Notes under the pieces: generated by a model
What the model saw: the letters and a program-made list of their open reading frames with translations, nothing else
Databases searched by the model: none
Told to the model about the DNA's origin: nothing
Source: Marsupella aquatica
Taxonomy: Eukaryota; Plantae; Marchantiophyta
DNA length: 64,000 nucleotides
Reading direction: 5' to 3'
Assembly: GCA_973895155.1 (NCBI GenBank)
Contig: OZ316892.1
Coordinates: forward strand, 20,037,869-20,101,868
Shown: positions 1,100 to 33,919 of the stretch, piece by piece
How positions within the stretch are numbered: position 1 is the stretch's first letter
Layout: every line of letters starts with the position of its first letter
Program-made: the position numbers and the translations under genes

Positions 1100-1172
1100 T
1101 ACTTGGTTTGTCTTGGGGTTACCATGGTTAGCTCGTCAACTCCGGGGCGGAAACATGCATGTCAAAATGGGA

Positions 1173-1320
1173 CATATACGGTGTACGACATTTCTCCATA
1201 CCATGATAGACCTTTGTATTGACTTTAAATCACTGAATGCACAGAGTTTACAGTGCACTCAGTGATTTAAAGAAATTAACCACGTTATCATGGTATGGAT
1301 GAATGTCGTACACCGATATG
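1173..1320. repeat. ~150-bp imperfect palindrome (hairpin)
   Basis: CATATACGGTGTACGACATTTCTCCATACCATGATA pairs with TATCATGGTATGGATGAATGTCGTACACCGATATG. The inner stem CTTTAAATCACTGAATGCAC / GTGCACTCAGTGATTTAAAG matches at 19/20. Confidence 0.85.
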
Positions 1321-1385
1321 CAACTTTTGTTGATGGGCACTTTGTTGGATATGAATAACGCTTTGACGATGGACGTAGGCATTAA

Positions 1386-1457
1386 GGGCTCGCAGCTCGA
1401 TGGTAGTGCACTGGCGTTGTATGCGGGAGGTCCCAGGTTCAAATCCTAGCCAGTCCA
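1386..1457 (+). pseudogene. tRNA-derived sequence (tRNA-Ala(UGC)-like pseudogene or SINE head)
   Basis: 72 nt, GGGCTCGCAGCTCGATGGTAGTGCA...GGTTCAAATCCTAGCCAGTCCA, with an A-box-like element and B-box GGTTCAAATCC. Cloverleaf has one mismatch in each of the acceptor, anticodon and T stems. Anticodon loop reads TTGTATG versus TTGCATG in tRNA-Ala(UGC). Confidence 0.7.
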
Positions 1458-3179
1458 TGTTGATGAGATTTGCAGCACAGTTACCCCAGAAACACCCGCG
1501 ACCCATCTCACGTATCACATACCCCCTACCATACAGGCCCGGTTGCGTGGTTAGCGTAGAGGAGGCTATGCAGCTTATCATGGAGTATCGAGCTGGTCAC
1601 TACGGACCCATTCATGAGGATGATGTTTAGCACTATCCATGCCCGTGTTGTGCATGTGAATAAACTTATTGATCACAGTATGATCCGACAGTCCTTGATT
1701 AAGATTCCACACGACGTTTCTCATAGTATGTATTTTAGGAGTTCATCATAGGCGTCAGATTGCAATGAAAATAATAGTGCCGTCACCTGAGGGAATCATG
1801 GTCATGAATAGTGACCCAATTCCATGCTTGACATGCACAGCTCTGGACAGAACCCATGTTTTGAACAGGATTGATTATGCAAACGGGGTGGATGAAAATG
1901 CACATAGTAAACCTGACTTTTACGCCCCTCTTCACGTTCTTCACTCTCTTTCTCGAGGTCTAGGTTTATGGTTCTGATTTAGCATGTTCATGTTGGAACA
2001 CGTCTTTTTTTATGGTCTTGTAGTGATATGTAATTTTATGATAAAAGAAGTAGGTAACTAGGTACACATAAAGTATATGCCAAGAAATAAGATCTCTTAA
2101 TTAAGAGTGAGTGCCATAACACACAAAACCATAAATCATCATGCAAAAAAAACCAAGAAAGTATAAAGTTACTAAAGAGTTGTGCACATACAGTACAAGA
2201 TTTCACTTCCTTCTAAGTAATGACAGTCAACTCACGTAAAACCATAAATTTTGTAAAGGAGATCACTAGGGGAACTTAGTACACTAGATGTGCACATTGT
2301 TCAAACTCATTTCTCGAACATTTAAGAGGGGAGCCAAATACTTTCAAAATACTGTAAGTTCACTAAAATTAAAAGGGGTACAAAAGTTAATTCAAAACCA
2401 CTTTAGTAAGGCACATTAAAATCAAAATACTTGACACAAAATCAGAATAAGGCAAAATGTGAAAGTTTAGATTCACCATATAGCAGCTTCACGTGGTTCT
2501 GAGTAACTCACGTGTGGAGACAACGCTTTGTAAATCGATAAGCAGAGTAGATGGCATTTTGTAAAGGAATAAAGCACAAGTCCCTAAGCCCATCCAAACT
2601 ATGCAGAGGAAAGATCATTTACTTCTATAATTTAATCCTAAACTATAATACAAGGGTCCGCTCTTTTATAGAATGGTTGTGATTTGAATTTGCAGGGTCC
2701 AAAAATGTAAACAATATGTGTCACCTTGACATCTTATGTTTTGTTCATGTTGCCATAATTTTTTCACTTCGACATCTTCATGTTGCCCTGAACATCATGC
2801 CCTTAACCTCTATATCTTTTCTCTCCTCTACTTCGCTTCCCCCATCTTTTCCTCATCTTTGCATGATATTCTCACCTCACCATCTTTTTTTCATCTCGAC
2901 ATCTTTTCTACAGGTCTAGTGAGAGACTGTTGTAATTCTGAAAATCCAGGGAAAAATCCACTAATATCAGATTGCATTACATAATGTGGATGCATGTAAA
3001 TTTCTCTCCAATAGGTGCATGTGTATTTAGACTCTCCAATTTTTGTCAACCATACTATGTCAAAGTGAATGAGTGTACAATTAACTTCCCCCCCCCCATT
3101 CCAGGCCTCCACATATATTCTCCATTCAATCATCATAATCAAACACTAAAGTGCAATGCTTGGGGTTTTTTTTAACTAT

Positions 3180-3375
3180 GTTATGTAATCCCTATAATAC
3201 ACCATTTAAGGGCTCTACACAAATATTTGAAGTTTTGGATGATTGGACATTACTTGACAATATTTGAAGTTCTTGTTGATTGGTTTATAGCTAGTTTTGC
3301 ATAATATCCAATCTCCCAAAACTTCAAATATTGTGAAGTAATCCCCTTACTGGTTAATTAAGGGGTTATATAACA
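3180..3375. repeat. AT-rich fold-back / MITE-like inverted repeat
   Basis: ACAAATATTTGAAGTTTTGGATGATTGGACATTA (~3218-3251) is the reverse complement of TAATATCCAATCTCCCAAAACTTCAAATATTGT (~3302-3334); imperfect pairing extends outward. Confidence 0.65.
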
Positions 3376-4689
3376 TTACAGGGGTATAATAAAATATACC
3401 AGCATTGAAGTAAATACAAACAAAGCTTCTTCTCGGGCTATTTGCGGCATGTGTGTATGAAAAAATTACAATTGATATGTGTTAGCTGGCCTGGAGTAAC
3501 AACTTGTTGAACGTCCTTGTGTGCAACTCTTCGGAACTTGTGTATGAGAACTCGAAGTTGTGCTCCAGTGAACCCCATGTAAGCACTCGCTAGAGTTATG
3601 TATCAACCAGTTGCTAATTTGCTAGTCTCAACAATGTTGTAATGGATGGAGCAATTGTAAAAAAAGAACACACAAGTACCTCCCCCTAATCCTCCCCCGC
3701 TTAACCTAAACCTACGTCCCTTTCCTTTACCACATCAAACAACTTTCCTAATTTTTTGGCACCAAACAAATTTTGCGGGCTGTGGCCGAGGCCCCAGCAG
3801 CAAGACGGCCAAGCAGCAAGACGGCCTGCAGGGGGGAGCAAGACATTTCTTTTTCACAGGTGGTGCCGTACAATGATTTGTGGAATCTGTTTTGTAGAAA
3901 ATAACTCCAATGACTTTGCGTTTACTAGTCAAGTGTTCAGCTTCGACACTATTGGGACACCGCTATGAAGATGGATGGTGGGCATGCCATATAGTAGTTA
4001 TTCTTAGCCCTTATGGGAGCTTTGTGATGTCTTTCTACAAGTACCTAAGGTCATTTGGCTACAAGGGAACCAAAAGAACTACACATGCTCTACTTGTAGG
4101 ACATGGAAAAAAACGTCATTTTCGTGCGATGAGTCTAGTGCGGCCAAAAATGCATTTCACAGACAGCCCTCCCGGTAAACTCAGAGATAAGAGATAGTAA
4201 TATACATAGTTCACTCAATGATAAATTGAAGGCAATGTTGGTGATCATTGTATGGTCTCTCTCCGGACCCCCGTGTCCCCGACATGTGCGAAAATGATGA
4301 CCGCCGAACTTTTGAAGCCGCAGCCACAAACTGCACGTGTATGACACCCATCCATACCGTGATAACAATAGATTACCATATAGTGCCAAATCATAGTATG
4401 CCGCCACGACAGGTTATGAGATTTCCCATAACGACAGGTTATGAGATTTCCCATAACGACAGTTTAATGCGAGACTATAACTCCTCGTACGAGAATCGAC
4501 TAACAGAATAGTAAAAACCTGAAGCTTTCACGATGTGCAAACTCCTCGTACGAGCATCGACGAAGGGAACACTTAGAAGCTTGAGCTGCCGCGACCTGCA
4601 AAGGAGTCTTTCGTTTGGTGTGAATCTGCAACCCGGCATTACAAGCTGCAGACGGCGATCTTCCGTTCAATTTTCACAGGGTACGCGGT

Positions 4690-6097
4690 ATGGCCGAACT
4701 CAAGGCGCACCTGGAAGCAGTGGAAGGTCTTCATTTTCGAAAAGTGCAGAGTGCCCGACATCCAACAGTTTACGATTGGAAGTGCCTTATTCCAGGATGT
4801 CCCGCAACAGGGATATTTTCCAGGAAGGAGTACATCAACAGGCATTGGAGAGAATGCCCGGAACATCAGAATGAGGATCTGGTGCAGAGTGTGGTGTACG
4901 TGAAGCCAGGGAGGAAGAAGGTGGAGGGCGCCACTTCACGGGAGGCCACCACAGAAGAGATGATCAGGCTTTTTAGGGCCACCAATGGGTTTTTCCCTCA
5001 CAGATGGCGTCGGTACATGTGTGGGGAACTAAATCGTCGGAGAGCACGTATTGTAGAAGAGTCCCTCACTTTGCATCTAACTTATCTGCGCACTGGTTGT
5101 CCTCCATCGCCTACTTCAATGCCACACTTTTATCTTGCAATGCATGCATTGGAATTGCCATATCTGGAAGGGTTTGCAATGCTATACAGTCCACAGTTCA
5201 GAGTTTGGTTCACACGTCACCTTAGAATAATCCTGTCCGGAGCCAATATTCACCACTTCAGGGCCTTGATTGCCTCCAAAATCTCTGAATTGGCAGATGG
5301 TATGACCAGACAAGAATGGTTTGAACGGGTTAATGTGGAGTTGGGGCTGATTGGTTCAGCGGAAGGTCTTGTTGCAGTCATGCAAGAGGTGTTGCATGCA
5401 CTGGGGCAGGGGAAGGAGTCAGTGGATGACATGTTTGAAGCAATGGTAGGATACATGTTAGCTGCAGAAAAGGCGCTTTGGTATTTGTCATTCAGCAGCA
5501 ACCCTGTAGAGACAATCCACCACACACTGCACCTCTCCTTCTACGACTGGAAATTTAGTGCAGAGGGAATGGAGCGAAAGAGGAGGAACGGGACAGAAGG
5601 TCTCAAGCACCGCATGCGTCGGCTACAGGCGCTCGGTATTGTCGAGAGTAAAGAGACTGCCACAGCAGAGGTACAATAGACAGGGATCTGAAGATGTTCA
5701 AACTATGAATTTTGTGAAGAGTTTAGTAATTGTAATGGTATGTAATTGCAAGTCCACGAATCTAAACTTGAATGTTTTATTTAATTTTGAGTAGGGAAAA
5801 TTCGGAGATGCAGAGAAGGAGATATCTGACGACGATGAGAAATGGAGGCCAGGCTTTGATCCTGTTGATATTCATTACGAGGTTGAAATGTATAGGTATG
5901 CCGGCCGAAATATAAGGTCGTATACTGAATGTTTGGCTGCATGGGTGAACGAAATCCCCCGCCCACCCGAGAAGCCTGGAAGGATAATTGTCCCTACAAA
6001 CGAGAACAAAGGGTCACTAAGGTGGGAGATTCAGTATCGCCGGTTCCAGCGAAAATACGGGTTCACTCTTGTGGAAGCGCATCTGGGTAACTTCTGA
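4690..6097 (+). CDS. Two-exon gene (4690-5670, 5795-6097; ~427 aa), unknown family with N-terminal Cys/His zinc-finger-like motif; paralog of the gene at 23471-25130
   Basis: 329-codon ORF with WKCLIPGCP...INRHWREC. Donor GAG|GTACAA at 5670/5671 and acceptor GTAG|GGA at 5794/5795 are phase 0 and in frame with ORF 5888-6097. Both exons align with the minus-strand paralog. Confidence 0.75.
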
Positions 6098-6229
6098 ATT
6101 TCCCTGTCAGACTCCCAGTTATACCAATTACCTTACATTGAATTCATGAAATCCTTATAAACTTCTCGTGGTGTGTGCCAAGAACGGGGTTGAATACCGC
6201 GTTTTCCCCGGTGCAGGGGAGGAGATGGG

Positions 6230-9200
6230 TGTGATGCCTAGACAGGAATCACTCGGCCGGTTAAGTGGGTAAAGCAGGAAGGCACCCTAGGAACAACTTA
6301 GTATAGGGACAAAACAAGGAAAATATAAACAATTAGGGGCAACCATGGAACCCGGGCAGAGGCCGGAGGTAAGGCTGAGGGTGAAAACCCGATTAGGGTT
6401 AGGGCGCGTTAAGCGTCGGCGGCTAGGAAGGATCAACGGGAAGAAGGACCGGCAGAGGAGAGGGGTAAGGAGCGCCTGCAAGAGATGGTGGCTCATTTGC
6501 GAGCACGAACTAGGCAGACGACTACGGGAGGCCAACTACTGTCAGCTGCTTAGGCAAGCACTCGGGGAGAGAGTAGATACCGACGATCGACCTAAGGAGG
6601 GTATGAGCAACATCAATCAAGCGGCACATTTCTGGGGATGCCTGTTCGAACGGGCAACTGAGTACATCAAGACTTACGAGGACGAGGAGTCAGAAAGGGC
6701 AGCTCGAGAACGGCAGGAGCTCGCTCGATTGTGGGAGCTGCAGAAGACGGCTTTCTTAGGAGGCGAACTCATCAAGGACGAGTTCCTGTGGACGCCTACT
6801 TCCAATCAACTCGACGATCTTCTGTTTTGCAAAGACAGCGTCGTCGGCATCCGAGAGGCCATCAAGAACTGCAACGACATACACTGGGAATTAAAGGGTA
6901 GCACGGAAAGGTGGACCCAGGCAACGGTGCTAGGAGAAACCTCCACGGTAGCAGAGATGAAGAGGAAGGGAGCCGTCAACGATGAAGCCACCCCGGCAAA
7001 AAGAACGAGGTCGGCGGCACCAAAGAAACCAGCCGAGCAGCAGAGCAGGAGGCAGGGAGAAGCCGAAGAGGAGGAGGTCGATCCCATCAAGGCCATTCCA
7101 ACCAGGGATGACACCTGGAAGGGCTGGGCGGCAACCCTACCGGTGGAGGTGCAACTACATTTTGCACGGGAGGAGGATGCATGCTTTACGGCCATGCAGA
7201 CCAAGAAGTACCAAGGCTTCATGGCCGGATCCGGCTTGGAGGCCTTTGTAAGATTACCATGGCTGAAGCCGGAGGTACCGGAGTCAGACCTATTAGAATT
7301 CGTGGGGTCATGGGAACCCGAGACCAATTGCACGAGGATATATGGGAAGGATTTCTATCTTACTCCCAAGGTGATTGCCGAAGTGTTTGGCTTGCCGATG
7401 GGCAATAAGACCAAAGTTGATACCAGGAAGACCTTGCCTGACAAGGAGTTCTGGTCGTTCCCCGGGCCATCAACGAAGAATGGCTTCTTCCGGAACACCT
7501 GCACCAACCCGCACATAGGAGAGATGATCGACTTCTTGCGGGTGACCATGCATTGTAACTTGCCGAGGGCAGAGATCGGCAAGGCACAGGTCTATCTGGC
7601 AGAAAGGCCAGACCCAAGCCGGGACTACAACGGGTACCTCCTCAACCAATTGAAGAAGATCTTAAAGGAGGAGCAGCAGGTAATCGGCATGGGGAGCGTG
7701 TCGCGGCTTGGCTATCACATGCCGCTGTTGTGCCGGTATGCCAGAGGTCAGACTTTTGCCCCGGTACTTCCCCTGCAGGTAAGGGCACCCGAGGAAGCTC
7801 CAACGCCGAGGCCGTTGGCTGAGAAGCCTCAACCACCTGTTAGTCCTACGATCGAGCAGGTGTTTAGGCCCAGGAAGGAAGACTTGCCGATGCAGCAACC
7901 AGGCATGCAGAGTCTGCTGAAACTACTGGAGAACGAAAAGAAATCGGCATCGGCAACAACAACGGCAACGGCAACAATACAGGACACTACTACAGAGGTA
8001 GGCCTACACCGGCTCACAAGAGAAAACCCCTTTGCTGGAGACAAGGAGAGAATCAGGCCGGAATCCAAGCCAGGTGTTTGAATGTACGTGGGAACCTCAA
8101 GCTCCGAATCTGAGGCAGAATTGGCTGAAGCTCCTACCGAGGAAGAGGAGAGGGAGAAGCCGGAAATCCAAGAGGTAGAGGAGGCAGTGGAGGACTGCAG
8201 CCATGATAATTCCGGCTATGGGTCGGACCATCACGTTCCAGGAGTAAGGACCTGTGGCCGGTTTGTCCCCACACTTCCAAGGGTAGTGCGAGGGGACCCC
8301 AACCAGCAGAGTAGCCCTGAGTCTCCCCCACCAGATGTTGCTCCCCCGAGCTTTGACGACATAAAACAGACGGTGCAGGAATTTCAGGAGCGAATCAAGC
8401 AGGAGGAAGAGGCCGCCCTGGCTAAGGAAAAGGATTTACCAGGAGGAGATTGGCCGGAGGACATCAGGCGGCTAGCCGAAAAAGGAAGCAAACCTCTAGC
8501 CACGATTGAAGAGATCCGCAGGACGGCTTGGGAGCAGAGGCCACGATGGGCGATGCCGATCACTTCTACTTACTCCACCTACGCTAAGAATAGAGCCATG
8601 GAGTATGGTGAGATGTGTGGGGAACTTGCGCTCGGCATCTTTGGAGAGGAGTTGGAGGTAGGACCCTTTTTCCATAGGGAGCAGTTGGAGAAGCACCAAT
8701 TAGAAGAAGCGGTGGCTTTAGAGAGAAGCAAGAAGGACGAGGTCATTCGGCGGCTTAGGAGGATGGGAGCCGAGATTGAAGATCTAAGGGCGGCCAAGAA
8801 AGCCCAAGATGAACTGCGGATTAAACGACATGAGCTGAACATCATGCAGGGGCAGTTGGACGCTGCGCAGGCTGATAATCAGAATATCAAGGATAAACTG
8901 ACTCAGACGCAGGAAGAGTTGGCCGACACGATCAAAGAAAGGGAAAAGTGGAAGCAAGAGCTGAAGAATACAGAGGAGGCCCACATAACAGCCAACAGCC
9001 GGGCCATGGCGGAGACCCAAAGAAAGGAATGGGCGTTGAAAGGGGAGCTCGAGAAAATCCGTGGAGCCCTTGAGCAGAAGGAGGTCGAGTTAGGGAAATC
9101 CTATCAAGGGATTATGGCGCTGCAGCAGGAGCTTGCGTCCCTGACGGCCAGCTTCAAGGCCGACCTAAGAGAGAAGGACGAGATGCTCGAACAGACTTAC

Positions 9201-10889
9201 GCCAAGATGAACCAGATGGAGTCTGTCATCATTGCAGAGCTCGACAAGGAGCTAAGAGCAACCCAGGAGGAGAAGGCTACCTTGAAGAAGGAATTGGAGG
9301 AAGCCCACAGGGAGCAGGAGGAGGCCAAAAACGAGCTGGAGGGGGCACGTAAGGACCTGGATGAAACCCAAGAGGAGTTGGAGGAAATCACGAGGAAGAT
9401 GGAGAACCTACAACGGCGGGCCGACAACCAAACAGAGCGGCTGAAGAAACAAGCCGCAGTATTTAAATGCTTAGCTGCAGCAGGTCCATCTCCTGTTGGG
9501 ACAAACCAGTTACCAGGGGTGGTAATTGCCGAAGGACAAGCCGCGCCACCTGCACCAGTGCCAGAGGTAAGTGGGAAGGGGAAGGGACCAGCTGCCGAGC
9601 CACCAACGAAGAAGAAGCGGAAACCTTCAGGGTCAAGGAGTAATACGACTTCACAGGCCGTGGTGATCAAGGAGGTAGACCCAGCACCGACCCCAGACAG
9701 GGTCACGGCTAAGGATCCAACTACCCTAGGGGAAGGGGAGGCCGAAGCCGTGGGGTTGGCTGAAGCCGAAGCCGTGGGAGTGGCTGAGGCCGAAGCCGTG
9801 GGTATTGCCGAGGCCGGTGTCGAGGCTGAAGCCGAAGGTGGACCCAGTCAGGCCGATGGAGAGTTGACTCGGTCAAGGGCAGGTAATCTGTCAGTAGGCG
9901 GGCCAACGGCAGTGGCTGAGGAGGAAGTGTTGGGGGCGTCCATTGAGGATCCACCACCGGTGTCGTGACGGTGCAAGGGCGCCGTTCCTTTTAGGGAGGG
10001 CGGACGTGGAGGGAGGAGGCGTGAGTGGGCAGGGCGGGCACGGATCTCCATGTTTAGGATTAGGATCAGAACCAGGAGCGGCCCTGACACTTAGCTTAGT
10101 GGGATTGCGGTCCCACTGGTAGGAGCAACACTTGTGCTCCTGCCTTGCTGTACATAGGTAGATTTGGGCAAGTAGATTACTGTTAAGTAGATTAGGCTTA
10201 CGATGCAAAGAATGGCGGATCCACTACCAGGATAAGTACCTGGGCAGCGGGGAGCTCAGGGCCTCTTCTTTAGCAAGTTTTTAGTTTGCACCAGCCGGGC
10301 TGGGATCAAGTAGTACGAGAAGCTCTCGGTTAGTCATACAGTGACCCTTGTGTATATTCATGTTTCCTCATGCCTAAGAGCTGAATAGAGTTGGCCTCAC
10401 GGCTTAGTTCGCAGAACTTGTGTATGAGATGTACTGTTTGTATGGCAAGTGCATGGTATGACTCAGTCAGAATGAGTCATTTTGCTATTTGTGTGTCGCA
10501 TTAACTTGTGTGAAGAGTGCCCACATCAACAGAAGGAAGGAAAGTAAGCAGGGGAGTGAGAGTTGGATGTGTCGAGCTGAGAGAGGTCTTAGCGGCTTAA
10601 CCAAGCCTATTGGGGATCATTCCGGCGGCGGAATCCAAACATACCTAACAAGACGGAGGGGAAGACAGGGGAAGACAGGGGAAGGCCTATATTAGGCCGG
10701 CTACGTATCTCATGACCCGATGAAGGATCTGTCCAGTATATGTGTGTAAAATGTTAATAGTAGTAGTAGAAGGTTAGCAGCGTCCCATGCCGCTAAGCCG
10801 CGGAAACGGCCTCGCCAAGCACGAAACCTGCGGGAATCGGCTTGAGCTGGGGGGTTTCTTGGGTTTAGGGAGCCATGGGACGCACCACA
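6230..10889 (+). mobile_element. Solo-LTR-like insertion, copy 1 (4660 bp), 5-bp TSD ATGGG
   Basis: Starts TGTGATGCC and ends GCACCACA (imperfect terminal inverted repeat). ATGGG at 6225-6229 and 10890-10894. The rebuilt empty site matches the uninterrupted repeat unit at ~11110-11170. Near-identical to 12582-17242. Confidence 0.85.
6345..9968 (+). pseudogene. LTR-internal ORF (~1207 aa, one premature stop): plant-mobile-domain/Transposase_32-like segment followed by a long coiled coil
   Basis: ORFs 6345-8081 and 8082-9968 are in frame and separated by TGA (8079-8081), which is CGA in copy 2 (14434-14436). GLEAFVRLPW...LLEFVGSW...IYGKDFYLTPKVIAEVFGLP resembles accessory ORFs of plant Ty3/gypsy elements (recognised by eye). 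No gag, RT or integrase motifs. Confidence 0.7.
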
Positions 10890-11310
10890 ATGGGCCAGGA
10901 TAGCCCGCAGCTCGACGACAGTGCCGGTATTGTGGTCGAAGATACCTCGAATTGCGCTACGCATGCACACTCGCCTCACGGGGATATGCATAGTGGCTGC
11001 CCAACAGGTGGTGCCGCACAATGATATCCGACATTGTTTTGTGTTTATGTCGTGGTATGTTGATAGCGGAGAAGCCATTATGTATATGCTCCAATGGGGA
11101 AGGGACTCAAAACCGCGTTTGCCCCGGTGCAGGGGAGGAGATGGGCCAGGATGGCCCGCAGCTCGACGACAGTGCCGATATTGTGGTCGAAGATACCTCG
11201 AATTGTGCTACGCATGCACACTCGCCTCGCGGGGATATGCACAGTGGCTGCCCAACAGGTGGGGCCGCACAATGATATCCGACATTGTTTTGTGTTTATG
11301 TCGTGGTATG
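10890..11310. repeat. 251-bp tandem duplication; the first unit is interrupted by solo-LTR copy 1 and continues at ~6195-6229
   Basis: ATGGGCCAGGAT(A/G)GCCCGCAGCTCGACGACAGTGCCG... at 10890 and 11141. The sequence before 11141 (CCGCGTTTGCCCCGGTGCAGGGGAGGAG) matches 6197-6224. Confidence 0.9.
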
Positions 11311-21038: not shown

Positions 21039-21087
21039 CCCTCATATCATTAAACCGGGGTCTGTTGTCTGCGTCTAGACCATTCAC

Positions 21088-22200: not shown

Positions 22201-22423
22201 TTCTCTGTTGGTGTTCCCGGATCGTCTATTGTCGCATTCGGATCGGTTGGACCGGGATGAACTACCGCCATACTCAGAGCGGCCAAGGTTTCTGTGAACC
22301 ACACCCAAACGCATACCATGATAAGAATATACACCCTAGACGACATCATTAATAGGATTTGGCCATTTAGGAATATTCATGAATGGAACGGAACTAAACT
22401 ATCCTTATGTGTGAATGTCATAC

Positions 22424-22972: not shown

Positions 22973-23470
22973 CTAATGTGAATACAAATAATTAGCACCC
23001 TGGTTCAAAATCATATAACTATGGTAGGACCGATAGAGCTTCATAATGCAAATAGTGTGAATGTTTAGTACCTCTTATTGGGCGAGAAATTGGTAGCTTG
23101 TTAGCCCTGACTTCAAGTCCCGTTGCGTCCACTCGGATATGCATTGAGTCATCTACTTCAATATACACGATCACTCCAAAGTCTGGGTTATTGGGGCAAA
23201 ACTCTTGTACAGATAGCCAGAGAAAGGAAAAACAAAAGATCCTGGGTGGTATCCTCGTGTACCATCCATATGCATAACCGAACCAGGCAAGAGGTGGAAC
23301 TATGACTACCCGGCCTAACAAGGTGCCAGTCCCTACACCTTTACCTCTTCTCGTCCCTAAATTTTTGTAATTTCTGTTCAAACCATATGCCACAGATATT
23401 TGTTTGTGAAATAGAAGGGATGCCACACGGCTGGGTTAATTATACAAGTGATGTAGTAAGTTGAACTACA

Positions 23471-25130
23471 TCAGAACATGATGTGAAGCTCGAGTATCCG
23501 GTTTTTGAACAAAACTGCGCATACATCTTTGTCCCCGGTATGCAATCTCTCTGCTCTAGCGAATTCACCGATGCAGGTTTCACAATACTTCAACGTACCT
23601 TTGTCAACCAACGTTTGAAGCTTTTCCTTAACATATGTCTGGAATCCGTGTTCCCACTGGAGGGATCCAAGGTTCCCCAGTGGCTCGATGTGGAGCACTT
23701 TGTCCTGCGCGCCACCTTCATCTGTCTCTGGAAGGCCTTCAGCCCATTCAGTGAGTTCTGCCGGCCTCAAGTGCGGGTTTTCCAACACGAATGCCCGAAC
23801 CTCCTGAAGGATGTCCACTGCTTTAATGGATGGTTTGAACTCATAGTCCAACTCCGACTGATCGATTTCCGAATCATAGAACCTACCCTGCTCAACCAAA
23901 CAGCACTCTTCGATCATGACCAGCGTACTTGTCATTTACCGAGGCTATCCAAAATCTGCAGTCGACCCCCAATATCTGTGACCCCCATTATGTATAATAT
24001 GCTGTCATGTGATGACATTCGATACCTCAAATATCGTACAGGATGGATTGTTTGCAGAGTTCATAAGTTGGATTTTGTGTGAAGGCCATACGCGATTGAA
24101 TAAAGACCCATAATATGTACATGCTTAATGTGGGGCACGCATCGAGGCTTACCTGTTCATCTGCAACCCCCGGGTCCTCCACGATGCCGAGAGACGCGAG
24201 TTGTTTGGCCCGAATGGCTCTGCCTGTTTGGGCAACGACAAGTTTCTTCTTTCTGCCCAGAGCACTGAATTTCCAGTCCATAAACTTCAAAACCAATGCG
24301 TCGTGCAGATCGGCGGACGGCGCAACATTGAAGGAATCAAACCAAAAATAATTTTCAGCATCCTCCATGTAATCCATCGCCTCCTTCAACAACTCGGTGA
24401 GGTCTGGATCCACGCCCTGTTGCGTAAAAGTTGATACAACTCTGCTGAAGCATGTCAACATTTTTGTCATTCCTGCAGTTGCCTTTTTCCCCTCCCTCGT
24501 CGATACGGAATGCTTGTGCATAGTTTGCATGGCTAGAAATTTTTTCCTCATGTGGTCTCGAAAGAGACGGTGCTGTGGATCTTGAAGAACAAGCTTCAAG
24601 TGCGCGGTGAGCCACACTCTGTACTGAGGGTGCTTCAAGAGCACGGTATCGCCCAAATAAGGAAGATCGAGAGCAGCAAAACAAACGAGCAGGTCAGGAA
24701 CTTCCGAAGGTGCCGAAGGTGCCCCCCGCTGCAGGTATCTAAGATGACGAGTGAGATATTCTTGGACAATTCTTTTCTTCTCTCCCTCTAGCATTGACAT
24801 TTGGGCTTCCTGCCACCTCCATGGGAAGAATCCAACAGTGCATTTCACGATTTCAAATTTCTTTCGGGTTACGGCAATCACGTTCTCCTGGTTTCGCCTT
24901 CGATTTTCTTCTTCGCTCAACTGTGGTGTATTCCCAGATTGGTGGCACTTCAACCAATGATCGTTAATGCCCTTCACTATGGTGTAAGCCTTCCCTATCG
25001 GACAACCTGGAATGATGCACTTCCAATCTAGTTTAGTTGGCTGTTTGCAATTGCGAACCCTGGTGTAATGCATCCCATCGTCTGCTTCCATGCAATCGGT
25101 TCTAACTCCACTTGCAATTGGAGTCGCCAT
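23471..25130 (-). CDS. Zinc-finger-like unknown-family gene, exons 25130-24153 and 23887-~23569; paralog of 4690-6097 and probable N-terminus of the modular gene
   Basis: WKCIIPGCP...INDHWLKCH, FFPWRW, LDLPYL, PQYRVWLTAHL, FMDWKFSA and LASLGIVE align with the + strand paralog. Donor CAG|GTAAGC at 24153 and acceptor GAGCAG|GGT at 23887 are phase 0. Confidence 0.75.
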
Positions 25131-26703
25131 GACTGCCAATGAAAACCTACACTAAGAAAGTTACCCTGCTGGCTGAAATTGGTTATCAGAGCGCGAGTGG
25201 GCACAGGAAATGGCAACTTGTGGAAGCACGCCCTTCGACCGCAGTGTCAAGACCATTGAGTCCGGAAATGTAGTGACCATCGTAATCCCCTAAACAAGGT
25301 TGTGCTTCTTTTGGTACTTCTTGCCACTCCCCTGTCATCTGTACTTATGGCACGGACATGACATCTCTCGGAGCCAGAGGTTGGCACGGCGAGACATTTC
25401 CATACCGTGACTTACGCCAAAATACATTTCCGGCGCCGCAGTAATGCAGCACTAACGTCGCGGTATAACAAGCCCAATAGCCCTGATGGTAAGCACGCAG
25501 CACAGTGTGGTAAGATACGCTATGCATTCATTGATCTGGTACAGAGACATCAGTATATCATGGTATGGATGTTTGGACGGATGCTAGTATGGTTGGAGGT
25601 TTTTGAGGGGTTAGGGTTAATGGTTCTCGCGACAACGTTCTAGAAGCGTTGGGCGAAGCCCCTTGCAGACCCTAAACCCTGGCCATAAAACCCCTACATA
25701 ACAGATAACTGATAGACCCCCTTTGTCCTGAGCGCCGTGTAGAGGGCGGTGTTAATTACCATTTCTGTCGAGGCGCCGAACATTGCCCACGGGCGTCGTA
25801 AAGCACTCGACCTCGCATCAAAGATTTATGGCCTTACTAGATCCGATATCCTGGTATGACAGCAGGCAGACCAAAATATGAGGACGGCTTGGTGTGGACC
25901 GAGATTTGGTCCGTGCAATACGTCCATCGTAGCCCTCGAAAAGTCTCGTCCAGGTTTCGTGACCTGTCATTAAATGAATGATAGCCCCCTTCACCTGACT
26001 GTCTAATCTCCGCTGTTATTGCCTTTTGTCGTCATGGGCGGCGGCTCTGTCGCCCATGACAGAGCCATCGCCACAGTCAGTGATAACCATGCCATTATGT
26101 ATTTATTATCATGGTCTGGGGCAGCCCCCAACCTCGACATGAGCACGTCATTATTTTGATCCAAGTTAAAGTTGAATGGATGCCCCCAATGCCTGACCGC
26201 CTAATGGAGGACGCTATTATTGCCGTTTGGCGTCAGGGCGCCGAGCATTACCAATGCCCTGCTGGTAATCACACATCAAAATGTGGCTGCATTCATTGAT
26301 TGAAAGAAAAACAACTAGGGTTATCACGGTATGCAGATGGGTGCCTCTTCGCAGCGTTCCCCAAGCTCAGTGATACCTGTATCTTTATATCACTATTATG
26401 GTATGGAGATGGCCCAACCAAGAGACGAGGAGGACACCCTAAACCCGGGAGTTAGTCCGTGCAAAACCGAGAGATGAGGATGGCACCTCGGCTGCCACGG
26501 GCAACACGACAATATTTTGCGCTATTTTTCCTTCATAGACCATCAGTGTTCATATTCATAAAAACACCCAAGTAAGATTATACCTATACATATGTGAAAC
26601 TGTGATGGAAACCAAAATGGGCCCCTTAACAATTTCAGAAAGTATGCACGGAGAAAATTACAATTGGAATTGACAAAATTGTGGGTGACATTGCAGCTAA
26701 ACA

Positions 26704-29700
26704 CTATTCATTCATATCTGGGAATTCCGAAGCAAAGTGTTTGTTCTGTCGCTTATCCCTGTTGGCACTAGCCTGAAGGAAATGTCTCCTAAGACTATAT
26801 TTGTCCTTGCACTTCTGCTTGCCCTTCCTTGGCCGAAAACGGAAATTGGACGGTTCATAACCAGGATTCTGCTGGTCTGACACTCTTCTATAGGGCATGT
26901 ATCGCTCACCTAGACGAGTGGACTGGGTCCTCGGCGCTTTCCGCATATTGCCACACATCTTCTCAACCTAGCTTTTCATTCGCAGAGGGGTGTGAGAGCA
27001 CCGAGGGGCCAGTCTCCTCCAAATGTGTCCGGGTGGAAGAACAGAGTCAGGATCTGTAAGGATGAGGCGGGTATCTTTCAGTCTACCATTGACTGCTCTC
27101 AACTCGTGGGCAACAAGAGCCTTCAATGTCGGGTTCATGAGGACGTAACCCTGAATTTCCTTCAATTGCATCTCGTACTCGCCGTTTACTTTGTCACAAT
27201 CTATCGACGGTAACATGTTGGAATCTGCATTGCATGATGAGCCAATTAGACTTTATGTGGAACTGAGTACATGTGAGAGGAACTTAATTTTATACTTCAA
27301 TAAAACAATGAACATTAGTAATAGTTGTTGGGTCTAGCACAACCTACCACGTGGTACAGGCAAGGGCACAACCTCCGTGGGGCGGGGTGGGAAGGCGTCA
27401 CCAACGTCAGAATTGTCAAATGACAGAGGGTCATGCACATCGAGAGTCAAATTTTCAGAGACGGGTTCATTGAGATCAATGGTAATGCCCAATCGCAATA
27501 ACTCAGACATGCCACCACGGATACCGCCATATCTCAATCCCAAAGCTACTCGGATGTTCGTCTCTGAGTACCCAAGCACACACAGCACGAGGACCTACAG
27601 CAAACGCATGACAACGTTAGAGGTACGTAGTCCTTCAACACATGAACAGGTTAGGGGTATTTAAACCGTAAACACATTAACATCGCTATCCAAATTCATG
27701 TGAATTACCTTGTGCTTGCAATAGTTGCCTTGCAAAGACCAATAGCACTGGCAGGAATTGACGTCATTCCTCCAATGGACACGGTATACCACATTCCTCA
27801 ATATGGACTTTACCAATGCCGTTGTCGCAGACAACGGAGCAGGAGGCCATTCCACTGACTTGACGTCCATATTCCTCACCTTCATGATCACGTTCATTAC
27901 ATACATATCCTTCTTTTTGTTGCTAACCAGACCCCTGGCCTTCTTTTTAGCCTTGTACCAAACATGTATGCCTACGTCATTGTGGAGGGTGTCACACAAC
28001 TCATCGACCCTTTTTTTGTCAAGATTCCGTTTCCTTGGGAAAATAATGGACTTGAGGATGGCGTGGTATGACTCAAGCGAGTTGTTTGTATCCTGATTAT
28101 TCCTCGCCACTGCTCTCCTCTTGTCTCGTATCCACATGTCTGCGCCGATCCCACAAAGTAAATAATGAAACGAATGTCAGCAATCGCCGGGGAAAGGACA
28201 CAACTGGGAAAACTATTATGTTATAGTCACTATAAAAACAATCTGCATCTTTGCATAGTGCGAGAGAGAGGAAACGGTGGAATGGTACTTACGTAGGCAC
28301 CCCATCCACTCCCCTTGAAAGTATTGGAGGAATTTTTTCTCTGTCCAGAATGTCTGGAAGAAGGTAGTCAGCTTTCTCTGAGCTGACCGTTCCACACATT
28401 CTAGTTCATGTAGGGTTGGGTCGACATGCAATGTGCTGCCAAATATTACATCCTCCAACGCAACATTCATTTGTGCACGTCGGTCATGAGACTGGACGAG
28501 CTCAAGCAATTTGGTCGTCCATGCCTTGCGGACATGGTATATACACAAGAATATGGGAATGTCGGGAAAAACAGTTTTGATAGCTGCTCTTTCATTATCA
28601 GCACAGTCAACCATGAAGCAGGAGGGTTTCCAACCAGGGCAGGCAAGTTCAGCTGCTGTCTTCACAACATGTAGAAACTTCACAATATCCTCTATTTCCT
28701 CCTTTTCAAGGATGGCATACGCAATGGGAAGCCCATTCTCGTATTCGTCAAACACCATAATGGTGTACAGCGGATACTGTTTACAAGAAAACGGTGAAAG
28801 GACATTAGAACGGGAGGATCGCGGAGCATCGGAGCTGTGATTGCGGTGCTGTGATTGGCGCCCCGCGTCTGAAGCAAAGATTACATTCGTGACATTCCAG
28901 CAAAAAAATTCACCATGAAAGGCCGAAAAAACATAACGTTAGGGGTGAAATTGAGGATATGAACCTTGTACTTGTGAGTTCCGAATGTCCCATCAATTCC
29001 CAGACATCGACTGTTCCCGTACTTCACCAGCCAGTCCAACTGGAAACTTCTCTGTAATACTATTCGAAGGGGCTCCATTGGAGAGGGTTTTGGCTGATCG
29101 TATAAGAGAATACTCTCCGGGGTGGCTTGAATCCATAAATGTGTACTTGTAGCATCGTTGGGGTGCCTGCGAAAAGTCTCCCTGTCTAGTCCCTTCTTCA
29201 CGTTTCCAATGTCATCCATAGTGATGTAATGGTCCCTGCAATCTGAGTGCTGATTTTCCAGCGTTGCATTCGAAGCGTGGAAAAGGGCCTTCGCAGCACG
29301 GTGCAGAATCTGCGTCGGAGTGGATCCTCTACGCAATTCGCATTCAATCCATCCCCTAACAGCACAAATAACAAGTATCAGGAGATATGAACGCGTTAGG
29401 AGTAGAGCCATCTACATACCCTGATATTGTAGTACTAAAGCGTGCTTATTGGAGTATGTTGGTGCAAACCCGATAGATGGGAACCTGCAGCGAAAAGGGC
29501 CACCACTATCGCCTACGCATACGATGATATTTATAACTATTTTCTATGATATCCGCGTGAGTTTGATGGACCCCATGGTAGTTCGAATGAAAGGACGGTA
29601 GGAGGCATTTACCTGGCTTCGGACGAAAGGCTATGGGCAAATTCCGACGGAAGACCTCTGCATCGTGGATCATCACTACCATGGCAAGGCAAACCTTCCT

Positions 29701-30170
29701 TGTCTACGTGGTCTTTGGATTTGTATCTGAGTTCAATGACGCTTTCGTCATGGATAGTCTCCAACTCATATGCCTGAAATCTGCATTGGCACCCTTTGTG
29801 GTAATGGTCGTGGTCAGCAGACAGCTTGCTTCCTTTCCCTGTCTTGGGCTTGTCTTTGGGATCGGCAATACTTTCGCTATTATGCAATGGCGCCTTCCTG
29901 CGGTCAGGAGTCCCAAACTCACAGTAATACTGAATTTTACGGACCCACCTGTGTGGTCCTCCGACATCTCATTTTTGCTTGGAGTCACGGGTGATAAAGC
30001 ATGTCATTGCACGCGGGCATCGACTACCCTCACCCTTCACAAAGTCTTGTAACCTATCGGATGGAATATAAGCTCGGTCCTTTGAGTCCCAATTGAGATC
30101 ATCGGCATTGAAAGGACCCTGCCTCCCAATCCTCTGCAGCAACAACGACTGTGGAGCGACAACCCTTTGT
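26704..30170 (-). pseudogene. MULE (Mutator-like) DDE transposase with SWIM zinc finger, spliced, at least one premature stop
   Basis: Exons ~30170-29613, 29355-28965, 28776-28293, 28139-27709, 27594-~27350 and 27224-~26968, with GT-AG junctions in frame. Motifs: KGCQCRF...HVDKEGLPCHG, GIDGTFGTHKYKYPLY (D1), FMVDCAD (D2), LCIYHVRKAW (CxxH), NNSLESYHAILK (E), CQCYWSLQGNYCKH (SWIM). TGA at 29971-29969 interrupts the first exon. Confidence 0.9.
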
Positions 30171-31054
30171 CTCTTTCCAGCCGCAGGTGTATTGGTAGGC
30201 AAAAAAAAAACTGCATTGAGACATTCCAGTCTATATTTTAGATGCGAAGTCTCACCAGATTCCGCCTCACCAATATTTGAAAATGCAATGTACAAAACTT
30301 TGAAACACAGAAAGGGGTTTTACCTTCTTGTACGTTATCCATTGCACACAGGATAGGAGCCCACCAGCGCACCCTACAGCATGGCGATGGGCATGGACAA
30401 TCCGGACTGCGATATTTGTAATTTTGAAAATTTTGTCACCGTATGATATCTTCGGAGGCAGGAATGCAAATGGCGGAGGATGGCAACATTGCACTCATTG
30501 ACGTTAGACCATCGGCGTTCGGAATTCGACAGATAATCGGCAATCGACAAACCATCCGCATTCCACTGATGAGAAGCATTCGGTTCTTCACAAGTCTTCC
30601 AGTAGTCGACTCCATTGTACATCCTGTTTGAGCTTGAAATCCTATGTCAGCTCGGAATGGAAGAATCCGCAGCGGAATGTAGCCATGACGCCTGGTTCAC
30701 GTGAATTCGAAATCGATAAAACTCGATGCCAAAGGAAGAAATTCGAGTCCACATGGAGGAATCGAGCTCTGGAATGAACACAGGATTTAGAGAGACTGTA
30801 TCCATCCCGCGCAAATTCGCAAATGGCGGCAGCATTGAAAGCGGTGTACGAGCAATTGCCGCGCTCTTCGAGTTCATCATTCGTTGATGTTAAAGATTTG
30901 AAACGTAACATCGTGGTATGTCCTAAACATCCACGATATGGGCAGAACATACACGATATGGGCAGAACATCCATGTAGCGGTTTAATTTCTTTGGGACGG
31001 AAAGGCTCAGACGGAGAATAGCGGACGGAGAATAGCGGACGGAGTGTGATGCAC

Positions 31055-31205
31055 CTGCCCTGGCTGCCCTGCCCGGCCCATTGCTGCCCTGCCCTGGCTG
31101 CCCTGCCCTGCTCTTGCTGCCCTGCCCTGGCTGCCCTACACTGCCTGCCCTGCCTGTTCGCCACCCACCCTGCCCTGCCTGTTCGCTACCCACCCTGCCC
31201 TGCCC
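31055..31205. repeat. (TGCCC)n / (CCTG)n low-complexity repeat, possibly subterminal
   Basis: About 20 TGCCC-like units, preceded by short duplications CACGATATGGGCAGAACAT x2 and GACGGAGAATAGCG x2. Confidence 0.85.
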
Positions 31206-33919
31206 GACTTGCTTATACCGTACCATTTGACGAACAGCTGCAAAAGAAATTTTGGATGAATGTAAAGGCACATTGTCTAGGAAAGCAGTACAGGGTATCA
31301 CGTATCGTATCCTGCCAGATTTTGATGTGCAATTACCAGCAGGGCATTCCGAGCACACACACACTTGAGTGACTTGCAAACTGGCCTACACCCATCTCCC
31401 CTATGAACGTTAGCATCTATTTCGTGTTAGTGAAATTAGAAAATTATTGTTACGAGGAGAATGACTCTTCTACTACAACTTGACCAAGGATCTTCATGGG
31501 GAACTTAGGGCACCCACGTTCCTTCCGTTCCCCGAAAAACAATTGTTTTAAATGCCTAATTTCAAAAATAAATTTAGTTACACCAGCTCATGAATGTAAC
31601 AAACATTTTCTTCATCTTAATTACTGCGCACAGTGTAGTGGATTTTTGGATATATGCCTAAAGATAAATCCTGAAAATATGAATCCTGAGAATTGGGATT
31701 GTAAGACACATCGGATTTGGTTGAAGTGACAAGCAACAACTGACCGAGAAGGAAAGAGAAGGGGTATATGTTGTGAGACTGAGAGATGAGGCCAGAACCC
31801 TTGTATGGTGGGTCAATGCTGTTTCTCCCCATTTGTAAAGATTGTTAAATAGGTCTCATAGCCAGATGAACCACAAATGTAGACTGTTAGCCCACTGCCC
31901 TGTTTTGAGATGCTCCATTATAGCCTTCCTTTTGGCAGAAACCTGTCAACATTTGAGTACTCTAGTTGGGCTCCATATGGCACACTTTCAGAGTGAATAA
32001 AAAGGTTAGTTTCATTTCACATCTGGGTTCTCCTCTTCTTTTCCAGAATTTTCTTTCCTATTTAGCATGAAAATGTAACAGAAGTACTGATCAATCAGTG
32101 TTTGGCACACTAATACAAGGAATCTTCCAGGAAAATCTACCCAATGGCCTACACATCAGAGTCTCAAGTTTATCGTTGACTGAACTTTGTTTAGAATTTT
32201 CCGACGGATATGGGACCCATTAGGGTAATCCAACTTTGAGAAGCTAGTTTAGAGTAATCAAATCTAATTAGGACTAACTAGTTGGCATTAGAGGCCCAAA
32301 ATTTGGCGGAATATATATTAGTACTCTCGCGGGATATGCAGTGAAGGCAGACTCGAAGCAGTACAATAATAGTACCTCACTAACTGACTGACTACGCTGT
32401 AAACCTTGAGGAATGACAGAAAACGTGTTGCTTGCATTAACTCAGAAGATCAGTATATAATCTTGCCAATTAAACTATTAATTTTGTTACGGTATTGACT
32501 TGGTGCCATCACAAGTGCAACGTGTATTCGATTAACGTAACATTAATGCGCGTGGGAATCTACCGTAGCTTGGGACCTTTCCATGATTTTCCATGCAAAA
32601 GGCAACCGTTAAGAAAGTCTACAGTTGTTACTCTGGCACAGTAATTGCGTTTGTCGGTGCTACAGTAAGAGCAATTAATGTCTTCGCGCGAAAACTGCAT
32701 ATTTTTATCTCGCGCGGTGCCATACATGATTTATCTAGATTTCAGTGTTTTTTAAAACTTCAAACCGTTTAGAGTATACATTCTAAATGTTTTTCCAAAG
32801 TATCACTCTGGGGAACCTGAAGTTTTTAACGTACCCTATTTACCTTGGCGTGCTTGCTCTATCAGCATTGTGTTTTTTTTTTTCAGGTAAAGGTCAGAGT
32901 GCAAGAAACTTTATTTGTTATGGGGTTTATCAAGTTTGTTGTATTTTTTAGAGCGCAAGATTTTCTATTTTTATTTTGAATTATTACTTAGAGAAACTCT
33001 TACTGAGATAGAGGTTTACTCTGGATACTCAAATAAGACACACTCAAACAGTAGTGTAACACAACACCAGCAAAGTATTCTGAAAAACCATAGCAAGTGT
33101 TCTGCAGTTAATGTTTAGTTTGTGTTTACCTTGTCAAACCTTTGGGTCTACAGTGGCTCCCAATGAATATTTCTTTCTAGAATTCCATGGGTCTGGCATG
33201 GTGTCCTTTCCTACTTGTCCCACCTCAACCCTCAATCAAAAGAAAATGAGGGTACATAATGCGCACCTCCAGTAGAGTGCTAGGGTGGACGGTCGCCTTT
33301 ATCCTTGAAAACATAATAAAAATGTACTAAAAGATTGATCAACTACAGTAGAGTGGTGGGAAAGGTTCGTCACTTTTGCTAGGCCTGATCCATTATAGGT
33401 ATCAGAATTATTGTTTTGTTTATTAAATTTGTTTTGCGAGTCGGTTTCCCCTCGTCTGTTGTGATTGGAGTTTCTGAAAACTCAAGGTGACGGCATATAT
33501 TACCATACACCTCAACTCAAGATGTCCTTCCGACAATCCAACTGCTAACAACAGACAGAGTGACGCCTGCCTGTGTTTCTGTAGCCCTATAGCATTTGGC
33601 AGCAAATCACATTAATGCATGGAGACTTGGAACAAAAAGAGAAAATGAATCCAGATTGAACCGTTGCAGCATCCAATCAAACTACACGGACTTTTGCTTG
33701 AGTCTGTGAGTTTTGGTCCCTTTTCACCTGGCAATGTTGGGAGGTTGGCCCCTGCACCATTCGGCATGTTGGAGTTGTTTGACATTAATTTAATCTCATC
33801 CCCAGGTCATATTGGAAAACAAATATAATACAGGGCATCAAAAGCTGAGATAAGGGCCTAAAGTTACTAGCTAGAGTGAATCCTCTAGACCCTGCCTCTA
33901 GAAATACAACTACAATTCC

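What the first reader, a model, noticed from the sequence alone, without database searches (positions are those of the whole stretch)
1197..31401. Giant Mutator-like element with the parts of a VANDAL/VANC-style self-protection system
Seen: a MULE transposase, two paralogous genes of an unrecognised zinc-finger family, a short motif scattered through the non-coding DNA and amplified in a tandem array, and no obvious TIRs, over about 30 kb (about 21 kb without the nested LTRs). Known: Arabidopsis VANDAL MULEs have degenerate TIRs and encode VANC proteins that bind short motifs accumulated in the element's non-coding tandem repeats and remove silencing sequence-specifically. Inference: this may be an independently evolved, undescribed anti-silencing or self-regulation module in a non-angiosperm MULE, with the zinc-finger family as reader and CATACYRYGAT as target. 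No similarity to VANC was recognised, and that all parts belong to one element is unproven.
Basis: partly seen in the sequence, partly recalled or inferred. Interest (0 to 1): 0.85.

Follow-up and report, generated by a model that had tools for sequence, protein, structure and literature searches.

The report
Giant liverwort transposon carrying candidate self-regulators
A very large jumping-DNA element, likely from a liverwort, carries two genes of an unclassified zinc-finger protein family and is marked along its length by one short DNA word, which these proteins likely read to keep the element active, as unrelated proteins do for some flowering-plant transposons.

Summary
Window ~1-31346 holds a Mutator-type transposase (DDE and SWIM intact, two nonsense codons), two convergent paralogous genes (33% identical, C2H2-like finger plus helical domain, no Pfam family), a 202-bp tandem array and two TSD-flanked LTR-like insertions. 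CATACYRYGAT occurs 19 times here, 0.17 expected, never in the 32.6-kb flank; it survives look-elsewhere correction and avoids exons. Corrections: short TIRs exist (26257, 31344; a third end at 231); the unit probably extends left of the window; the motif also sits in the end sequence of a high-copy relative family. Public contigs put both genes and the transposase at about 2-3.5 times flank depth, dropping at the right TIR. The gene pair recurs, in apparently the same order, at two Calypogeia fissa loci, and the family occurs in Marchantia. It is not a VANDAL or VANC by sequence. Best reading: a MULE with its own sequence-specific regulator, working like VANC/TnpA (0.42). Main rival: the transposase reads the motif. 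Binding, expression and any methylation effect are untested.

The parts
1..31346 (.). Co-amplified unit (about 22 kb without the LTR-like insertions); right end at the TIR, left end probably outside the window
   Evidence: Contig depth in run X3 about 100-120 at 1-346, 1341-2044, 3747-4538, 5109-5802, 11355-12299, 22650-25245, 26776-28078 vs bins of 60-79 at 31658-34000; X1 43-75 vs 20.8.
231..330 (+). Left-type end of the family (TIR tip CCCTG plus subterminal block, motif with 1 mismatch at 296)
   Evidence: an X3 contig covering 1-346 runs across it at element depth, so it is internal
1171..1323 (.). Two subterminal blocks back to back (150-bp palindrome) without TIR tips; motifs at 1197 and 1287
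4338..4426 (-). Decayed end-like block with motifs 4353 and 4390, 264 bp upstream of the ZF1 ATG
   Evidence: nhmmer E 4e-4
4690..6097 (+). ZF1 exons 1 (4690-~5671) and 2 (5795-6097): C-x4-C-x14-H finger, helical domain, second conserved domain
   Evidence: model pLDDT 81
6230..10889 (+). LTR-like insertion 1 (TG..CA, TSD ATGGG), passenger inside the inferred ZF1 gene; absent from other copies
   Evidence: joint 6205>11123 in X3 and X4
11890..12407 (+). Inferred last ZF1 exon (frameshifted in this copy), paralogous to 19522-19881; tail 43% identical to C. fissa CAM6104356
   Evidence: one-base difference against three runs
12582..17242 (+). LTR-like insertion 2 (TG..CA, TSD CTCGA), passenger
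   Evidence: an X1 contig stops matching at 12581 and runs on for 1459 letters
17746..17812 (-). Decayed end-like block with motif variant at 17762
   Evidence: nhmmer E 0.003
19447..19944 (-). Inferred last ZF2 exon, small domain of no Pfam family, 30% identical to C. fissa CAM6082029 residues 670-732
20157..21041 (-). NIF/FCP1-like phosphatase domain, DLSGT in place of the DxDxT motif (motif recalled); likely an exon of ZF2
   Evidence: Pfam NIF E 2.9e-9; 30% identical to CAM6082029 residues 426-606
21080..22198 (+). 202-bp tandem array, 5.5 copies, five motifs in one orientation; inside the inferred ZF2 gene (intron)
22536..25130 (-). ZF2 exon 1 (25130-~24150), exon 2 (~23920-23624) and K/R-rich open frames
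25481..25572 (+). Decayed left-type end with motif 25557, 351 bp upstream of the ZF2 ATG
   Evidence: nhmmer E 9e-5
26257..26351 (+). Left-type end (TIR of about 26-30 bp plus subterminal block with motif 26323), shared with a high-copy family
   Evidence: bin depth 3615-9020 vs 58-555 beside it; diverse flanks, conserved continuation holding the motif
26737..30805 (-). Multi-exon MULE transposase: N-terminal CxC..H..H region, DDE, SWIM; two nonsense codons in this copy
31252..31346 (-). Right end (TIR); motif at 30910 lies between it and the transposase ATG
   Evidence: single-depth X1 flank contig begins at 31317 with 0 differences

Best explanation
This is a large, low-copy Mutator-type transposon, likely from a liverwort, whose two zinc-finger cargo genes likely encode sequence-specific regulators that would bind the element's CATACYRYGAT motif and keep the element expressed against host DNA methylation. 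Shown: the parts, the motif's enrichment, restriction to the element and exon avoidance, and the short TIRs. Inferred from contig depth and accession order: one co-mobilised unit, and a gene pair conserved in Calypogeia. Inferred, untested: the proteins are made; they bind the motif, perhaps as dimers on the CAT-N3-RTG pseudo-palindrome; binding at promoters, introns, array and ends favours transcription or demethylation; the phosphatase-like domain contacts host transcription machinery; non-autonomous relatives keep the motif to use the same factor.
For: Motif: 19 vs 0.17 expected; top of all spaced 8-mers vs shuffle best 7-10; 12 sites remain after masking end-like blocks vs 0.6 expected, corrected P 3e-6; 1 of 20 sites in exons that cover 30-43% (P 0.007-0.0002); flanks of the sites are mostly unrelated; 0 in flank and in the LTR-like units. 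Each of the three genes has a site 100-450 bp upstream of its ATG. Internal sites far from ends, and a same-orientation array in an inferred intron, match the VANC21 target layout (PMC5735166). The TIR tip is a separate conserved sequence, leaving the motif for a second reader. Genes and transposase share raised depth that falls at the TIR. The family has invariant C, C, H, H, 8 accession clusters on 7 C. fissa contigs, and the same pair at two of them. 29 of the 40 listed differences (of 605) between this copy and the majority are C>T at CG or CHG, 2 at CHH, which fits methylation of this copy.
Against: No binding, expression or methylation data. One finger per protein would read about 3-4 bp (own knowledge), not 11, so extra domains or dimers must be assumed. 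The motif is part of the end block of a high-copy family, and 6-8 of the 20 sites lie in decayed end blocks, as expected for a transposase site. A TIR-bounded 5.1-kb transposase unit (26257-31344) excludes the cargo, and a 7-bp match CCGAGCA flanks it 4 nt out of register, so the association may be a secondary composite. X1 depth differs along the unit (43-45 at ZF1, 61-75 at ZF2 and transposase). Linkage to a transposase in C. fissa is untested.
Confidence: 0.42

Rival explanations
1. The motif is the transposase's own subterminal binding site, spread inward by nested and decayed ends and used for self-activation; the zinc-finger genes are cargo with another job (for example helping integration, like MURB).
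For: Motif conserved about 66-76 bp from the tip in a high-copy end family; eight end-like blocks in the window; the transposase has an N-terminal Cys/His region; AtMu1c transposase binds and hypomethylates cognate termini and non-autonomous relatives without accessory protein (10.64898/2026.08.24.746577); MURA binds MURB (PMC12973397).
Against: 12 sites lie outside any end-like block; the right end has no intact motif; reported AtMu1c peaks within AtMu1 copies are at TIRs, while these sites run through promoters, introns and an array.
Confidence: 0.25
2. The zinc-finger proteins read the motif but act as repressors or as structural transposition factors (self-limiting or TnpA-like scaffold), not as anti-silencers.
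For: Sites upstream of all three genes fit negative autoregulation equally; an FCP1/SCP-like domain is attached to ZF2 in the C. fissa model, and SCP phosphatases work in REST-mediated repression in animals (recalled); maize TnpA is needed for transposition.
Against: The tested plant precedents (VANC21, VANC6, TnpA-Spm1) activate; the phosphatase motif is altered in this copy.
Confidence: 0.15
3. The motif is the site of a host transcription factor that the element has accumulated, and the cargo proteins do not read it.
For: Promoter-proximal and non-coding placement fits any factor.
Against: 0 sites in 32.6 kb of flank holding four host genes; the motif is built into the family's own ends.
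Confidence: 0.08
4. The region is a nest of separate elements: a 5.1-kb autonomous MULE beside a Pack-MULE-like cargo element of the same family, copied together by segmental duplication or end-skipping, with no functional link.
For: TIR pair around the transposase alone; weak TSD-like 7-mer; uneven X1 depth; no C. fissa transposase recovered (weak searches).
Against: Flat X3 depth across cargo and transposase and a drop at the TIR; cargo and transposase regions share ends and motif; the transposase core is not deeper than ZF2.
Confidence: 0.1

Closest known systems
Arabidopsis VANDAL21/VANC21 (PMC5735166)
   Same: MULE with extra genes; short degenerate motif enriched in non-coding parts, upstream of the transposase and in same-orientation tandem repeats within introns; rare outside the family.
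   Different: No DUF1985, DUF287 or plant-mobile-domain hit; VANC is described as dicot-specific and MAIN-derived (PMC13547354); here a C2H2-like family in two paralogues with an FCP1-like domain, recognisable short TIRs, and no functional data.
Spm/TnpA of maize and Arabidopsis (10.64898/2026.08.24.746577)
   Same: Accessory DNA-binding protein beside a transposase; 10-11-bp motif in subterminal regions shared by related non-autonomous copies.
   Different: CACTA superfamily, tandem HTH domains derived from a transposase, action limited to termini, reported as restricted to flowering plants; here MULE, zinc finger, and many internal sites.
AtMu1 transposase self-activation (same preprint)
   Same: MULE transposase plus a large non-autonomous family sharing a motif.
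   Different: AtMu1 has no accessory genes and its peaks are at the TIRs.
Marchantia polymorpha multi-copy transposase family (MPTK2_3g90260 and relatives)
   Same: Closest named transposase, 58% over the core; 14 of 15 listed cluster members are Marchantia gene models on several chromosomes.
   Different: Its flanking genes, ends and motifs could not be read here.
Spectre MULE of aphids and Mutyl mutB (PMC6446971)
   Same: MULEs with a second ORF holding a C2H2 finger or a DNA-binding role.
   Different: Other kingdoms; no dispersed motif described in the passages read; homology not tested.

Membership tests
MULE (Mutator) superfamily | MULE-type DDE transposase, often with SWIM finger | tested here: met
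   Pfam MULE E 1.8e-11, SWIM E 0.013; D, D, H, E and C-C-C-H residues align with the Marchantia protein
MULE (Mutator) superfamily | Terminal inverted repeats | tested here: met
   35 bp at 91% between 26253-26287 and 31314-31348; short for MULEs but inside the 14-500 bp range given in PMC6446971
MULE (Mutator) superfamily | 8-11 bp target-site duplication | tested here: inconclusive
   No in-register match for either left end; best 8 bp with 1 mismatch, 4 nt out of register; true left end probably outside the window
VANDAL/VANC | VANC protein with DUF1985/DUF287 (MAIN-like) domains | tested here: not met
   No such Pfam family in 30 of 30 family members or in the other cargo ORFs scanned
VANDAL/VANC | Absent or degenerate TIRs | tested here: not met
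   Recognisable TIRs shared with a high-copy family
VANDAL/VANC | Short motif dense in non-coding regions and tandem repeats, rare elsewhere | tested here: met
   'elsewhere' is only the 32.6-kb flank and the two LTR-like units
VANDAL/VANC | Accessory protein binds the motif and causes family-specific hypomethylation | not testable with these tools
   Needs EMSA or ChIP and methylomes
VANDAL/VANC | Fold shared with VANC | tested here: inconclusive
   ZF1 exon-1 model gave no Foldseek match at E<=0.001 and best Z 6.9 (rmsd 5.2, 95 aligned) to generic helices; whether a VANC structure is in the libraries is unknown
Spm TnpA-like regulators | CACTA transposase and tandem tri-helical HTH domain | tested here: not met
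   Transposase is MULE; the cargo N-terminus has invariant C, C, H, H
C2H2 zinc finger | C-x2-4-C-x12-H-x3-5-H with two strands and a helix | tested here: inconclusive
   Ligand pattern invariant in 16 aligned sequences; strands then helix 46-55 in the model; only sub-threshold hits to known fingers (E 0.08-2)
FCP1/SCP (NIF) phosphatases | NIF domain above the curated cut-off | tested here: met
   37.3 bits vs cut-off 21.8
FCP1/SCP (NIF) phosphatases | Catalytic DxDx(T/V) motif (recalled) | tested here: not met
   This copy reads DLSGT; other copies not examined
Pack-MULE | Non-autonomous element carrying host gene fragments, no transposase | tested here: inconclusive
   A transposase lies within the co-amplified unit; cargo genes are long, multi-exon and conserved across liverworts, but the cargo part may have begun as a separate unit

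The most novel reading that the evidence does not exclude
A liverwort-wide lineage of giant MULEs encodes a third, independently evolved class of sequence-specific anti-silencing factor: paired zinc-finger/helical proteins with an FCP1-like domain that bind an 11-bp motif spread through the element and its many non-autonomous relatives. This would extend transposon counter-defence beyond flowering plants and be testable in Marchantia polymorpha, which holds both the protein family and the closest named transposase family.
Probability: 0.28. Interest if true: 0.88.

Novelty: new variant of a known kind. Interest (0 to 1): 0.68.

Why it matters
The tested accessory anti-silencing proteins of plant DNA transposons, VANC and TnpA, are reported as limited to dicots or flowering plants. 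A sequence-unrelated family with the same layout of targets in liverworts would show that this counter-defence arose repeatedly, and would offer a new sequence-specific epigenome-editing protein. Both the family and the transposase occur in Marchantia polymorpha, a transformable haploid model, so the question is directly testable.

Tried and rejected
No whole genome was held, so copies, left end and TSDs could not be read. Word-based search with ZF1 found nothing among 2403 candidates; the full HMM scan found 32, of which P0027 and P0031 were dropped as helicase-associated-repeat matches. Two transposase searches returned the same 2 clusters and no C. fissa protein: weak searches, no evidence of absence. 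Metagenome scans for the finger and the transposase confirmed 0 of 76 and 0 of 499 stretches; the viral scan gave one 26-residue match, E 9e-4, treated as chance and not examined. No RNA holder listed. Atlas: no usable hit for P0001; only sub-0.9 unnamed fungal clusters for P0011 630-745. Fold searches gave no clear match and solved-structure searches nothing meaningful. The single-sequence model of 19522-19881 was unusable (pLDDT 31); my recalled likeness of that domain to Transposase_23-type domains got no Pfam support. ZF1-ZF2 complex prediction: no verdict. No NIF remnant was found in the ZF1 gene. One search used a wrong frame for the 11890 exon; one search corrects it and moves one motif site into coding, replacing the 0-of-20 count. 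ZF2 exon-1 differences split 7 synonymous, 7 non-synonymous: uninformative. Runs X5 and X6 held only short or divergent pieces. Three look-ups of earlier findings returned nothing. One search has no bearing. Rejected: filing as VANDAL/VANC; 'no TIRs'; 1197 as left end; the two LTR-like units as ends of one retroelement (each has its own TSD).
Full report
Observation. The window splits into a repeat-rich left part (1 to about 31350) and a right part with ordinary intron-rich host genes (DapB confirmed by Pfam, the others named from recall). The left part holds a multi-exon MULE transposase on the minus strand (Pfam MULE E 1.8e-11). Its DDE and SWIM residues align with a Marchantia polymorpha protein, and two nonsense codons lie in inferred exons. 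ZF1 (4690, +) and ZF2 (25130, -) are 33% identical over 322 aa. Two 4.66-kb TG..CA units are separate insertions with their own 5-bp TSDs.

The motif is real. CATACYRYGAT matches 19 times, all between 1197 and 30920, against a shuffle mean of 0.17. Because it was picked by eye, I ranked all spaced 8-mers of 19 shapes after removing the LTR-like units and collapsing duplicates. CATAC-N3-GAT was first, with 19 in 20.8 kb; the best pattern in each of 30 shuffles reached 7-10; the 32.6-kb right flank has none. After masking end-like blocks 12 sites remain against 0.6 expected (corrected P 3e-6). One of 20 sites lies in inferred coding sequence, which covers 30-43% of the unit. Five sites sit one per unit, in one orientation, in the 202-bp array. 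Each gene has a site 100-450 bp upstream of its first ATG.

The element has ends. 26253-26287 and 31314-31348 form a 91% inverted repeat, and 231-308 resembles 26257-26335. A profile of these ends finds further decayed copies at 4426(-), 17812(-) and 25481(+), besides the two palindrome arms used to build it; two of them face the ZF1 and ZF2 start codons. In public contigs the 26257 end is far deeper than its neighbours (bin depth 3615-9020 in three runs), has varied flanks, and continues into a conserved stretch that holds the motif. So the motif is also part of the end of a high-copy, presumably non-autonomous family. No in-register TSD was found.

One unit or several. Four runs of two organism labels hold 0.64-0.73 of the words of 22300-31400. 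In X1 a flank contig starting at 31317 has depth 20.8 and no differences, while contigs over ZF2 and the transposase have 61-75 and over ZF1 43-45. In X3 contigs from position 1 to the transposase have about 100-120, against flank bins of 60-79. The tool warns that depth is not a copy count; I read it as a low-copy unit, roughly 2-4 copies, whose right edge is the TIR and whose left edge lies beyond position 1. A joint from 6205 to 11123 in X3 and X4, and an X1 contig that leaves the window at 12581, indicate that other copies lack the LTR-like insertions. X1 may be the window's own source and so is not independent. Of the 40 listed differences (605 in all) between this copy and the majority, 19 are C>T at CG, 10 at CHG, 2 at CHH and 9 other, which fits a methylated, decaying copy. 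Against a simple single element: the TIR pair encloses the transposase alone, a 7-bp match flanks that 5.1-kb core out of register, X1 depth is uneven, and no contig spans the unit.

The cargo family. A full HMM scan found 32 proteins; I looked up 28: 11 are Calypogeia fissa, 1 is Marchantia polymorpha, 16 are unnamed metagenome or Logan proteins. With cluster members, C. fissa has 8 accession clusters on 7 contigs. Two of them hold a pair: CAM6082029 with CAM6082031, and CAM6104355 with CAM6104356-57. A tree of 22 C-terminal fragments groups 6082031 with 6104356 (100/99) and 6082029 with 6104355 (97/92), so the pair appears to have been copied as a unit; adjacency rests on accession numbers and contig lengths, not on DNA. 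CAM6082029 matches ZF2, then the NIF-like ORF, then 19549-19734, in the window's order; CAM6104356 matches ZF1 and 12198-12386. A frameshifted exon at 11890-12407, read with X at the break, is paralogous to 19522-19881 (37% over 68 aa). ZF1 and ZF2 are therefore likely long convergent paralogues, and the array likely lies in a ZF2 intron. C, C, H, H are invariant in 16 aligned sequences. The model of ZF1 exon 1 is confident (pLDDT 81, pTM 0.57): a small strand-helix finger, then helices. No Pfam family fits 30 of 30 members. The transposase's closest named relatives are a multi-locus Marchantia family. The host is thus likely a liverwort (inference). Whether the C. fissa pair lies beside a transposase is untested.

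Mechanism. Shown: anatomy and motif statistics. Inferred: co-mobilisation. Untested: who reads the motif and with what effect. I favour the cargo proteins as readers that sustain expression (0.42). Twelve sites lie away from any end, in promoters, introns and an array; the TIR tip is a separate conserved sequence; and this layout matches VANC21 targets. The transposase as reader is the main rival (0.25), since the motif is built into left-type ends. A repressing or structural role (0.15), a host factor (0.08) and an unlinked nest (0.10) follow.

Known systems. VANC21 binds a 9-base motif arrayed in non-coding tandem repeats and has DUF1985 and DUF287 (PMC5735166, parts 1-2 of 6 of the text read). 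VANC is described as dicot-specific and MAIN-derived (PMC13547354, passages). TnpA-like proteins use tandem HTH domains and appear restricted to flowering plants, and AtMu1c transposase alone activates cognate copies (10.64898/2026.08.24.746577: abstract, first third of section 3, sections 6 and 7, passages). Other MULE accessory ORFs are listed in PMC6446971 (passages) and PMC12973397 (passages and section 7); PMC10398659 was read as passages. This element works like VANDAL in layout but fails the VANC-domain and no-TIR tests, so it is not filed there. Nine searches, judged from listings and abstract starts only, showed no bryophyte transposon-encoded regulator. The EMBO J 2022 VANC survey and the VANC21 structure paper were not held, no supplements were read, and subscription journals and Repbase were not searched, so prior description is not excluded.

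Verdict. A real, well-supported anatomy with an unclassified protein family and a strong candidate motif; function unproven. New variant of a known kind, interest 0.68.

Noticed in passing
window 6230-10889 and 12582-17242: Two 4.66-kb TG..CA units with 5-bp TSDs and no internal terminal repeats, each wholly containing long sense ORFs (596 and 628 aa in copy 1; coiled-coil, and a part recalled as plant-mobile-domain-like with no Pfam hit). Bin depth 33,000-80,000 in X1 vs 21 for flank. They look like solo LTRs that carry protein-coding ORFs; the copies differ at 185 aligned positions.
   Followed up: partly
window 26257-26351 (loose ends and joints): High-copy short-element family sharing the TIR; some contigs join left end to right end over a few dozen letters (MITE-like), and a second subfamily continues like the 1171-1323 arms.
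   Followed up: partly
window 1171-1323: 150-bp palindrome of two subterminal blocks back to back with TIR tips missing; also present in the majority contig of X1.
   Followed up: partly
motif variants across 1197-30920: The YR positions vary as CG, CA, TG, TA, the pattern of methyl-CpG decay; a reader tolerant of TpG might also accept methylated CpG (speculation).
   Followed up: no
window 421-1260, 2101-2520, 2941-3780: Further higher-depth repeats nested in the left part, with inverted repeats at 349-377/1073-1101 and 3178-3376.
   Followed up: no
window 6193-6229 + 10890-11108 vs 11109-11318: 251-bp tandem duplication interrupted by LTR-like insertion 1; skipped together with it in X3 and X4 contigs.
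   Followed up: partly
window 31054-31204: CCTGC-rich low-complexity array inside the right end, variable in length between copies.
   Followed up: no
window 35080-36110: Degenerate repeats of about 200-310 bp upstream of the first host gene.
   Followed up: no
window 38860-62700: Host genes: ubiquitin-like Elongin-B-like gene with an optional K/E-rich exon at about 41440-41960, intronless DapB (43804-44985, Pfam), malic-enzyme-like and 3-dehydroquinate-synthase-II-like genes (names other than DapB recalled).
   Followed up: no
run X6 on window 4685-4848: A run with the same species label as X3 holds only a low-depth, about 91% identical piece of ZF1 and almost none of the element's words: possibly presence/absence variation or a different taxon.
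   Followed up: no
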